This document shows positions 7,996 through 8,504 of a stretch of 64,000 bases of DNA, piece by piece (position 1 is the first letter of the stretch; each line of letters starts with the position of its first letter). This DNA comes from Somniosus microcephalus (lineage: Eukaryota): NCBI GenBank assembly GCA_052327205.1, contig CM126204.1, positions 161,014,001 through 161,078,000 on the forward strand, read 5' to 3'. The position numbers and the translations under genes are program-made. The notes beneath the pieces are model-generated. The model was given only the letters and a program-made list of their open reading frames with translations. It was not told the origin of the DNA and did no database searches.

Positions 7996-8140
7996 ATGTG
8001 TAACCCAGTGGCACGACTACCAGGAGGCCAGGCAGCAGGTCATTGCTCTGATGAACCAGGCGGAAAAGAAGTTGTCGGAATTTTCCACAGCCAAAGCAGC
8101 AACTAGCCATGAGAGTGAAGAGAAGCTGACACAACATAAG
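7996..8140 (+). CDS. SYNE1: Nesprin-1 exon B
   Basis: CCCCTAG acceptor, AAG|GTCAGT donor. QWHDYQEARQQVIALMNQAEKKLSEFSTAKAATSHESEEKLTQHK resembles vertebrate SYNE1 as I recall it. Confidence 0.92.
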
Positions 8141-8390
8141 GTCAGTACAGCAACAATAACTGGCTCACAACATAAGGTCAGTACAGCAACAGTAACTGGC
8201 TCACAACATAAGGTCAGTACAGCAACAGTAACTGGTTCACAGCATAAGGTCAGTCCAGCAACAGTAACTGGTTCACAGCATAAGGTCAGTACAGCAACAG
8301 TAACTGGTTCACAGCATAAGGTCAGTACAGCAACAGTAACTGGTTCACAACATAAGGTCAGTACAGCAACAATAACTGGTTCACAACAAT
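8131..8390 (+). repeat. 36-bp tandem repeat spanning the exon B donor (7 copies)
   Basis: Unit GTCAGTACAGCAACAGTAACTGGTTCACAGCATAAG; GT at 8141, 8177, 8213, 8249, 8285, 8321, 8357. Confidence 0.95.
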
Positions 8391-8504
8391 AGCTAGCTCA
8401 CAACAATAACTAAATCACAACAATAACTAGCTCATAACACATGCTCTCTCTTTTTCTTTCTGTTTCTTTCGTTTTCTCTTTTTTTCTCCCTCTCTCGGTT
8501 TCTA

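What the first reader, a model, noticed from the sequence alone, without database searches (positions are those of the whole stretch)
8131..8392. In-frame ladder of seven splice donors built by tandem duplication of a SYNE1 exon end
Seen: the exon B end and donor (CATAAG|GTCAGT) recur every 36 nt, 7 times, with the same -3..+6 sequence. The period is a multiple of 3 and there is no stop until the last unit (CAA TAG). Inference: donor choice could add 0-6 copies of a Ser/Thr-rich 12-mer (VSTATVTGSQHK) inside a spectrin repeat, a length dial on the nesprin rod. Downstream donors often win such competitions, so the shark protein may usually carry the insert. Copy number could also be polymorphic.
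Basis: partly seen in the sequence, partly recalled or inferred. Interest (0 to 1): 0.8.

Follow-up and report, generated by a model that had tools for sequence, protein, structure and literature searches.

The report
Minisatellite repeating a nesprin splice donor
A short DNA repeat has copied the end of one nesprin-1 exon seven times, giving seven identical in-frame splice points, an arrangement already known from several human genes, where the first point usually does most of the work.

Summary
A 36-nt minisatellite (8130-8388, 7.2 copies) spans the end of a SYNE1 exon. It gives seven identical AAG|GTCAGT donors in one open frame up to the TAG at 8390. It probably arose by slippage at a 7-nt match (CACAACA) between the exon end and an older 17-nt intronic repeat. 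Donor 1 is ancestral: spliced there, the protein aligns without gaps to 3 of 4 named orthologues. The kind is known. In human F7, CBS, IFI6, LMNB2 and PDGF, donor-spanning minisatellites use only the first donor, or the first plus the next two (PMC1557585). The 'length dial' reading is weak. The junction lies 12 residues into helix B of a spectrin repeat, so an insert would break a helix rather than lengthen the rod. An in-frame, stop-free unit arises in 21% of simulated duplications. Against me: model substrates with two strong donors favour the downstream one beyond about 30 nt (PMC3413131), and I had no RNA data. Donor usage is untested. Verdict: new member of a known kind, probably near-neutral, but a clean natural reporter of donor choice.

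The parts
7996..8140 (+). SYNE1 (nesprin-1) coding exon B, 145 nt: helix A, the A-B loop and the first 12 residues of helix B of one spectrin repeat
   Evidence: AG/GT borders; one of 13 exons that concatenate to 818 codons with no stop; orthologues; helix limits on the snake orthologue
8130..8388 (+). 36-nt minisatellite, 7.2 copies; unit = last 11 nt of the exon + first 25 nt of the intron; 4 variable columns, 6 of 7 units distinct; no other copy in the window
8138..8146 (+). Donor 1, AAG|GTCAGT, the ancestral 5' splice site (phase 0)
   Evidence: spliced here, 121 of 121 positions align without a gap to snake, icefish and tamarin nesprin-1
8174..8362 (+). Donors 2-7 (after 8176, 8212, 8248, 8284, 8320, 8356), identical to donor 1 at -3..+6; use would add 12-72 residues and lengthen the exon to 181-361 nt
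   Evidence: usage not tested
8189..8341 (+). Five weak in-frame GT sites (ACA|GTAACT, after 8191, 8227, 8263, 8299, 8335) created by an A>G change in units 2-6
   Evidence: consensus value 66 against 90 for the main donors, matrix recalled
8390..8392 (+). First in-frame stop (TAG), in the partial eighth unit, after the last donor
8365..8439 (+). Older 17-nt repeat (the last 17 nt of the unit plus three copies starting CACAACAATA and a remnant); supplies the CACAACA match to the exon end
10651..10869 (+). Next SYNE1 exon C, 219 nt: rest of helix B and helix C; its acceptor is the shared 3' splice site
   Evidence: Pfam Spectrin 55-105 on residues 11-62, E 6.5e-4, below the curated cut-off; named nesprin-1 hits, 66-70%

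Best explanation
A lineage-specific, donor-spanning minisatellite of the F7/CBS/IFI6 kind. Step 1 (inferred from the anatomy): replication slippage or unequal exchange between CACAACA at the exon end and CACAACA at intron position +26, the start of a 17-nt repeat copy, duplicated 36 nt including the donor; further slippage gave seven copies. Step 2 (shown): all seven donors are equal at -3..+6 and in frame, and donor 1 is the ancestral one. Step 3 (inferred from natural precedents): most transcripts use donor 1 and encode the normal spectrin repeat; a minority leak to donor 2 or 3. Step 4 (inferred from the structural map): leaked products escape nonsense-mediated decay but carry a non-helical 12-24-residue insert in helix B of one of many spectrin repeats. 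This is tolerated splicing noise, not a regulated length control.
For: Anatomy and microhomology. About 30% of the window lies in five tandem arrays (19,191 of 64,000 nt), so such an array needs no special cause. Gap-free alignment of the donor-1 product to 3 of 4 named orthologues, 78-84 of 121 identical; the fourth, a draft model, lacks this region. PMC1557585: the F7 37-bp array of 5-9 identical donors uses only the most upstream; pseudo-sites up to consensus value 91 did not compete; LMNB2 and PDGF use only the first donor, CBS and IFI6 the first plus two. In IFI6 the 130-aa form predominates (PMC4526556). No sign of selection on the ladder: frame and no-stop arise in 21% of simulations, 2 of 4 variable columns change the amino acid, and 4 substitutions miss the 9-nt donor with probability 0.32. 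The array has 0 purine-rich enhancer-like 4-mers per 100 nt against 4.1 in exon B (crude proxy, motifs recalled). No RNA structure beyond shuffles: 86 of 100 shuffles fold as well.
Against: No transcript evidence at all. PMC3413131: with two identical strong donors, use of the downstream site rises quickly beyond about 30 nt of separation and is about 100% at 45 nt or more. Here neighbours are 36 nt apart and non-neighbours 72 nt or more. This donor (consensus value about 90 on a recalled matrix, 5th of 13 in the window) is stronger than the F7 donor (74 in that paper, different matrix), and in F7 perfect-consensus pseudo-sites took 70-90% of splicing. All precedents are mammalian. An in-frame unit is also what would survive if downstream donors were really used and frameshifting arrays had been purged.
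Confidence: 0.65

Rival explanations
1. Downstream donors win by the intron-proximal rule, so most giant nesprin-1 in this animal carries a 12-72-residue Ser/Thr/Val-rich insert in helix B of this repeat. The insert is tolerated because it touches one repeat of a very long rod, and the array survived because it is in frame.
For: PMC3413131: near-exclusive downstream use with two strong identical donors 45 nt or more apart. The donor is fairly strong. All products are in frame.
Against: Natural arrays with similar spacing (F7 37 bp, CBS 31 bp) do not behave so (PMC1557585). Donors 6-7 give exons over 300 nt, which vertebrate exon definition disfavours (recalled). The repeat's length is invariant in 3 of 3 complete named orthologues. 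The array lacks purine-rich enhancer-like motifs.
Confidence: 0.18
2. A selected, regulated dial: tissue-specific donor choice sets the slack or stiffness of the nucleus-cytoskeleton tether.
For: Period of 36, open frame and seven intact donors. The insert is 40% Ser+Thr, so it could be modified (inference).
Against: Each of those features is within chance. Non-synonymous changes include Thr>Pro. The insert splits helix B instead of lying in a linker. No relative carrying the repeat was found (weak evidence, since these searches also missed plain orthologues).
Confidence: 0.05
3. The extra donors mainly interfere. Crowded U1 binding at 36-nt spacing lowers recognition of the exon and causes some skipping; the exon is 145 nt, so skipping shifts the frame and lowers the level of full-length nesprin-1, in proportion to copy number.
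For: Steric interference between close U1 snRNPs is proposed in PMC3413131. The title of the CBS VNTR paper reports reduced enzyme activity (reference list only). The exon length is not a multiple of 3.
Against: In F7 minigenes, changing the copy number from 1 to 12 did not alter the splicing pattern.
Confidence: 0.08
4. Assembly artefact: the array is inflated or invented by the assembler.
For: The same intron holds 810 undetermined bases in two runs, so local assembly is imperfect.
Against: 6 of 7 units are distinct, with an ordered pattern of variants; the array is only 259 nt and joins cleanly to the exon and to the 17-nt tail.
Confidence: 0.04

Closest known systems
Human F7 intron 7 37-bp VNTR (PMC1557585; read abstract, introduction, results and the first part of the discussion, parts 1-4 of 6)
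   Same: First unit spans the exon-intron boundary; 5-9 identical donors at almost the same spacing (37 against 36 nt) compete for one acceptor.
   Different: The F7 unit is not a multiple of 3 and holds only 4 exon bases; its donor is weaker (74); splicing and polymorphism are measured there and unknown here.
Human IFI6 (6-16) intron 2 minisatellite (seen in the PMC1557585 introduction and one passage of PMC4526556; the original paper PMC306954 is not held)
   Same: A ladder of repeated donors in which the next two units are used besides the first, giving three mRNAs and different protein isoforms; the 130-aa form predominates. That the unit is 12 nt and adds 4 or 8 residues in frame is recalled, not read.
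   Different: 26 donors, a much shorter unit, and a small protein rather than a folded spectrin repeat.
Human CBS exon 13/intron 13 31-bp VNTR (passages of PMC2630376 and PMC1557585)
   Same: Donor-spanning, with 24 exon + 7 intron bases by its variant name; two pseudo-sites are used besides the authentic one; units carry substitutions.
   Different: Frameshifting unit, 15-21 copies, known polymorphism.
Human PDGF intron 4 81-bp and LMNB2 100-bp minisatellites (PMC1557585 introduction only)
   Same: Donor-spanning arrays; 81 is also a multiple of 3, and only the authentic donor is used.
   Different: Longer units and more copies; whether the 81-bp unit is free of stops was not checked.
Inserts in spectrin repeats, such as the alternatively spliced and calmodulin-binding inserts of alphaII-spectrin (recalled; one search gave one listing, not read)
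   Same: They suggest that a spectrin repeat can tolerate a looped-out insert.
   Different: Those are conserved, dedicated exons or motifs, not products of a donor ladder.

Membership tests
Donor-spanning minisatellites (F7/CBS/IFI6/LMNB2/PDGF kind) | Tandem array whose first unit spans an exon-intron boundary | tested here: met
   11 exon + 25 intron bases per unit
Donor-spanning minisatellites (F7/CBS/IFI6/LMNB2/PDGF kind) | Donor sequence reiterated unchanged in the following intron | tested here: met
   7 of 7 AAG|GTCAGT
Donor-spanning minisatellites (F7/CBS/IFI6/LMNB2/PDGF kind) | The most upstream donor is the authentic (ancestral) one | tested here: met
   Gap-free alignment to 3 of 4 named orthologues; donors 2 and 7 force 12- and 72-residue gaps
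Donor-spanning minisatellites (F7/CBS/IFI6/LMNB2/PDGF kind) | Splicing confined to the first one to three donors | not testable with these tools
   No RNA-seq or transcript collection for this animal
VNTR (strict sense) | Copy number varies between alleles | not testable with these tools
   One haplotype only; called a minisatellite here
SYNE1 / nesprin-1 spectrin repeat | Orthology to named nesprin-1 | tested here: met
   4 of 4 named hits are nesprin-1/SYNE1; 64-69% identity over exons B+C to three of them
SYNE1 / nesprin-1 spectrin repeat | Exons B+C form one three-helix spectrin repeat | tested here: met
   On the snake orthologue P0047: Pfam Spectrin 2-105 over residues 4-110 (E 2e-6, 28.7 bits, just under the 29.9 cut-off); model helices 5-28, 37-74, 80-135 (pLDDT 78.5); top fold matches are utrophin and dystrophin repeats (probability 1.0, E 2.7e-3 or worse). 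The window's own spliced repeat was not folded.
Regulated alternative 5' splice site (functional isoform ladder) | Downstream donors used in vivo, with tissue regulation | not testable with these tools
   Needs junction reads
Regulated alternative 5' splice site (functional isoform ladder) | Signature of selection on frame, donors or encoded peptide | tested here: inconclusive
   No signal, but only 4 variable sites: frame and no-stop 21% by chance; 2 of 4 changes non-synonymous; P = 0.32 for sparing the donor
Rod-lengthening spectrin insert | Insert is helical or lies in a linker between repeats | tested here: not met
   Junction at residue 12 of 38 of helix B; mean helix penalty 0.57 against 0.36-0.40 for the three helices, scale recalled; modelled as strands, not helix

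The most novel reading that the evidence does not exclude
In this animal the downstream donors carry a large, tissue-dependent share of splicing. A polymorphic minisatellite has then been exonised through a donor ladder and writes 12-72 Ser/Thr/Val-rich residues into helix B of a nesprin-1 spectrin repeat: a heritable, splice-tuned, pre-unfolded 'slack' element in the nucleus-cytoskeleton tether, and a natural array that follows the proximity rule against the mammalian precedents.
Probability: 0.12. Interest if true: 0.6.

Novelty: new member of a known kind. Interest (0 to 1): 0.28.

Why it matters
Most likely it matters little for the animal. Its value is as a natural reporter for an unsettled question: among identical 5' splice sites, does the most upstream win (F7 'oriented scanning') or the intron-proximal one (two-site model substrates)? 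The 36-nt spacing sits in the reported transition zone of 30-45 nt. All seven products are in frame, so nonsense-mediated decay cannot hide any. The units carry diagnostic substitutions, so reads can be assigned. If downstream donors proved dominant, it would show new coding sequence being written into a conserved structural repeat by a minisatellite.

Tried and rejected
Protein searches for a relative carrying the insert. Exon B + 2 units, 127-2000 aa: 0 of 123 candidates scored. Exon B + whole array, 72-230 aa: 0 of the 8000 scored. Both are weak evidence, since one search also missed orthologues found, and full-length nesprin-1 exceeds the searchable lengths. The best hit to exon C was 77-78% identical, so this species' own protein was not seen. 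The unnamed hits (38 of 38, 11 of 15) stayed unexamined; whether any comes from a cartilaginous fish is open. PDB by sequence: 0 hits for exon C. Rfam: 0 hits in 7000-11500. RNA folding of the array: z = +1.1, so no masking structure. The AlphaFold2 model of exon B + array puts one strand in each repeat (pLDDT 64), with no fold match at E <= 0.001 (best E 1.2, TM-score 0.17). Rejected as evidence for a beta-solenoid, because AlphaFold2 does this with arbitrary perfect repeats (PMC11795689, abstract). The Pfam B_solenoid_ydck hit (E 9.8e-6, below cut-off, 0 passing stretches) is rejected as compositional. The minus-strand open frame through the array (8017-8397) is a by-product of a stop-free repeat; not pursued. 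Papers not held. Read without use: PMC10078293 (passages) and bioRxiv 2021.01.19.427332 (passages). Searches gave nothing relevant. No supplements were read.

Full report
Observation. Tandem Repeats Finder reports a 36-nt array of 7.2 copies at 8130-8388, with 96% matches and no indels. Each unit is the last 11 nt of a coding exon (7996-8140) plus the first 25 nt of the intron. AAG|GTCAGT follows 8140, 8176, 8212, 8248, 8284, 8320 and 8356, identical at -3..+6 in 7 of 7. The exon frame stays open to the TAG at 8390-8392. In-silico splicing from each donor to the acceptor at 10651 gives an open frame with 0-6 extra 12-mers. Four of the 36 columns vary and 6 of 7 units are distinct; two changes are synonymous and two are not (Ile/Val, Thr/Pro). 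Mean pairwise difference is 5% and the unit occurs nowhere else in the window at up to 10 mismatches. The ordered variants argue for a real array of some age, not an assembly error.

Gene. Thirteen exons between 5943 and 51335 concatenate to 818 codons without a stop. The next exon (10651-10869) finds 15 proteins; all 4 with a name are nesprin-1/SYNE1. Spliced at donor 1, exons B+C align over 121 of 121 positions without a gap to icefish (84 identical), tamarin (80) and pit viper (78) nesprin-1. The fourth named protein, a draft fish model, lacks this region. Donors 2 and 7 force gaps of 12 and 72 residues. So donor 1 is ancestral and the length of this repeat is conserved from teleosts to primates.

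Origin. After the last full unit the sequence continues as three 17-nt copies starting CACAACAATA and a remnant, and the last 17 nt of the 36-mer resemble them. The exon ends in CACAACATAAG. The 7-nt match CACAACA between the exon end and intron position +26 lies exactly one period apart. The simplest history (inference): an older 17-nt intronic repeat gave the microhomology, slippage duplicated the 36 nt between the two matches with the donor inside, and the array expanded. About 30% of this window is tandem repeat, so the genome makes such arrays readily.

Is the in-frame ladder more than chance? I simulated donor-spanning duplications of 12-100 nt at the other 12 donors of the window. 17,100 of 51,264 are in frame and 10,939 (21%) are also stop-free; for 36-nt units, 248 of 336 are stop-free. 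Four substitutions would spare the 9-nt donor with probability 0.32. There is no signal of selection, though the test is weak, and an in-frame unit is also what a filter against frameshifts would leave.

Where the insert would go. Exons B+C make one spectrin repeat. On the snake orthologue, Pfam Spectrin positions 2-105 cover residues 4-110. A single-sequence AlphaFold2 model (pLDDT 78.5) has helices at 5-28, 37-74 and 80-135, and its best fold matches are utrophin and dystrophin repeats (none reaches E 0.001). The junction, residues 48/49, is 12 residues into helix B. The insert is 40% Ser+Thr, is helix-poor on a recalled scale (0.57 against 0.36-0.40), and would turn the helical register by 120 degrees per unit even if it were helical. 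A model of exon B plus the array shows strands, not helix, in the repeats. I take only 'not helix' from it, because AlphaFold2 folds arbitrary perfect repeats into beta-solenoids (PMC11795689, abstract) and the fold search found nothing. An insert would therefore loop out of, or destabilise, one repeat; it would not add rod length. I did not fold the window's own spliced repeat with and without the insert.

Which donor is used? Unknown: no transcript data were available, and three protein searches by word index plus one profile-library search did not show this species' protein or any protein with the repeat (weak evidence). The literature points two ways. PMC1557585 (parts 1-4 of 6 read) treats exactly this architecture. 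The F7 37-bp array has 5-9 identical donors and only the most upstream is used. Inactivating it activates the next one, copy numbers from 1 to 12 change nothing, pseudo-sites up to consensus value 91 do not compete, and perfect ones take 70-90%. Its introduction lists LMNB2 and PDGF (first donor only) and CBS and IFI6 (first plus two). A passage in PMC4526556 says IFI6 makes three mRNAs with the 130-aa protein predominant. Against this, PMC3413131 (passages and the end of the discussion) reports that with two strong identical donors the intron-proximal one gains quickly beyond about 30 nt and takes about 100% at 45 nt or more. The donor here is mid-to-strong: 5th of 13 by consensus value and 9th of 13 by log-odds, on a recalled matrix. 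Its spacing is in the transition zone. Local features lean upstream: no purine-rich enhancer-like 4-mers in the array against 4.1 per 100 nt in the exon (crude), late donors give exons over 300 nt, and no structure masks any site. I put dominance of donor 1 with minor leakage at about 0.65, dominance of downstream donors at about 0.18, interference with exon recognition at 0.08, a selected dial at 0.05 and an artefact at 0.04.

Novelty. The architecture, and even leakage into a short ladder of isoforms, is published for human genes. I found no paper on this array: one search (nesprin-1, SYNE1, shark, minisatellite, VNTR, splice donor; 20 of 40 papers listed, titles and abstract starts seen) showed none, and searches gave only the human cases. 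The library lacks most subscription papers. It is a new member of a known kind. What is left of interest is that all seven outcomes escape nonsense-mediated decay and can be told apart, which makes the locus a cheap natural test of upstream against proximal donor choice outside mammals, and the roughly one-in-eight chance that it really writes a variable insert into nesprin-1.

Noticed in passing
window 9502-10380 (same intron): CpG island (observed/expected 0.75, 63% G+C; window median 0.42) with YY1-like (9560), E2F- and CHR-like (9576, 9585), CCAAT, GC-box and CRE-like motifs (motifs recalled). It holds a strong + strand donor GAG|GTGAGT after 9762 and a - strand donor near 10125. It may be an internal or bidirectional promoter whose first exon splices to the acceptor at 10651, giving an N-terminally truncated nesprin-1, or a dispersed promoter-like repeat.
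   Followed up: partly
window 10326-10377: Perfect two-copy 26-nt tandem repeat at the edge of the CpG island, each copy with a CRE-like half site.
   Followed up: no
window 1-5751, 24529-26476, 27991-28768, 52171-62625: Very large intronic minisatellites (20-nt x 288, 36-nt x 53, about 28-nt x 29, 35-nt x 298); with the donor array they make about 30% of the window.
   Followed up: no
window 36489-39929, + strand: Two long consecutive open frames (615 and 531 codons) that read like an LTR-retrotransposon gag-pol (protease, reverse transcriptase, RNase H and integrase motifs recognised from memory), separated by a stop; inside a SYNE1 intron.
   Followed up: no
window 15655-15665: The acceptor of the exon at 15663 has a poor pyrimidine tract and an AAG ending, the weakest-looking acceptor of the 13 exons, yet the frame through it is intact.
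   Followed up: no
window 8189-8341: An A>G change in units 2-6 makes five extra weak in-frame GT sites, 15 nt after the main donors.
   Followed up: partly
window 12380-13070 and 21530-22250: Two related G+C- and CpG-rich dispersed elements in different introns (seen; CpG peaks); family not identified.
   Followed up: no
window, intron after the array: The intron holds 810 undetermined bases in two runs; no exon is missing there, since exons B and C are contiguous in the orthologues.
   Followed up: partly
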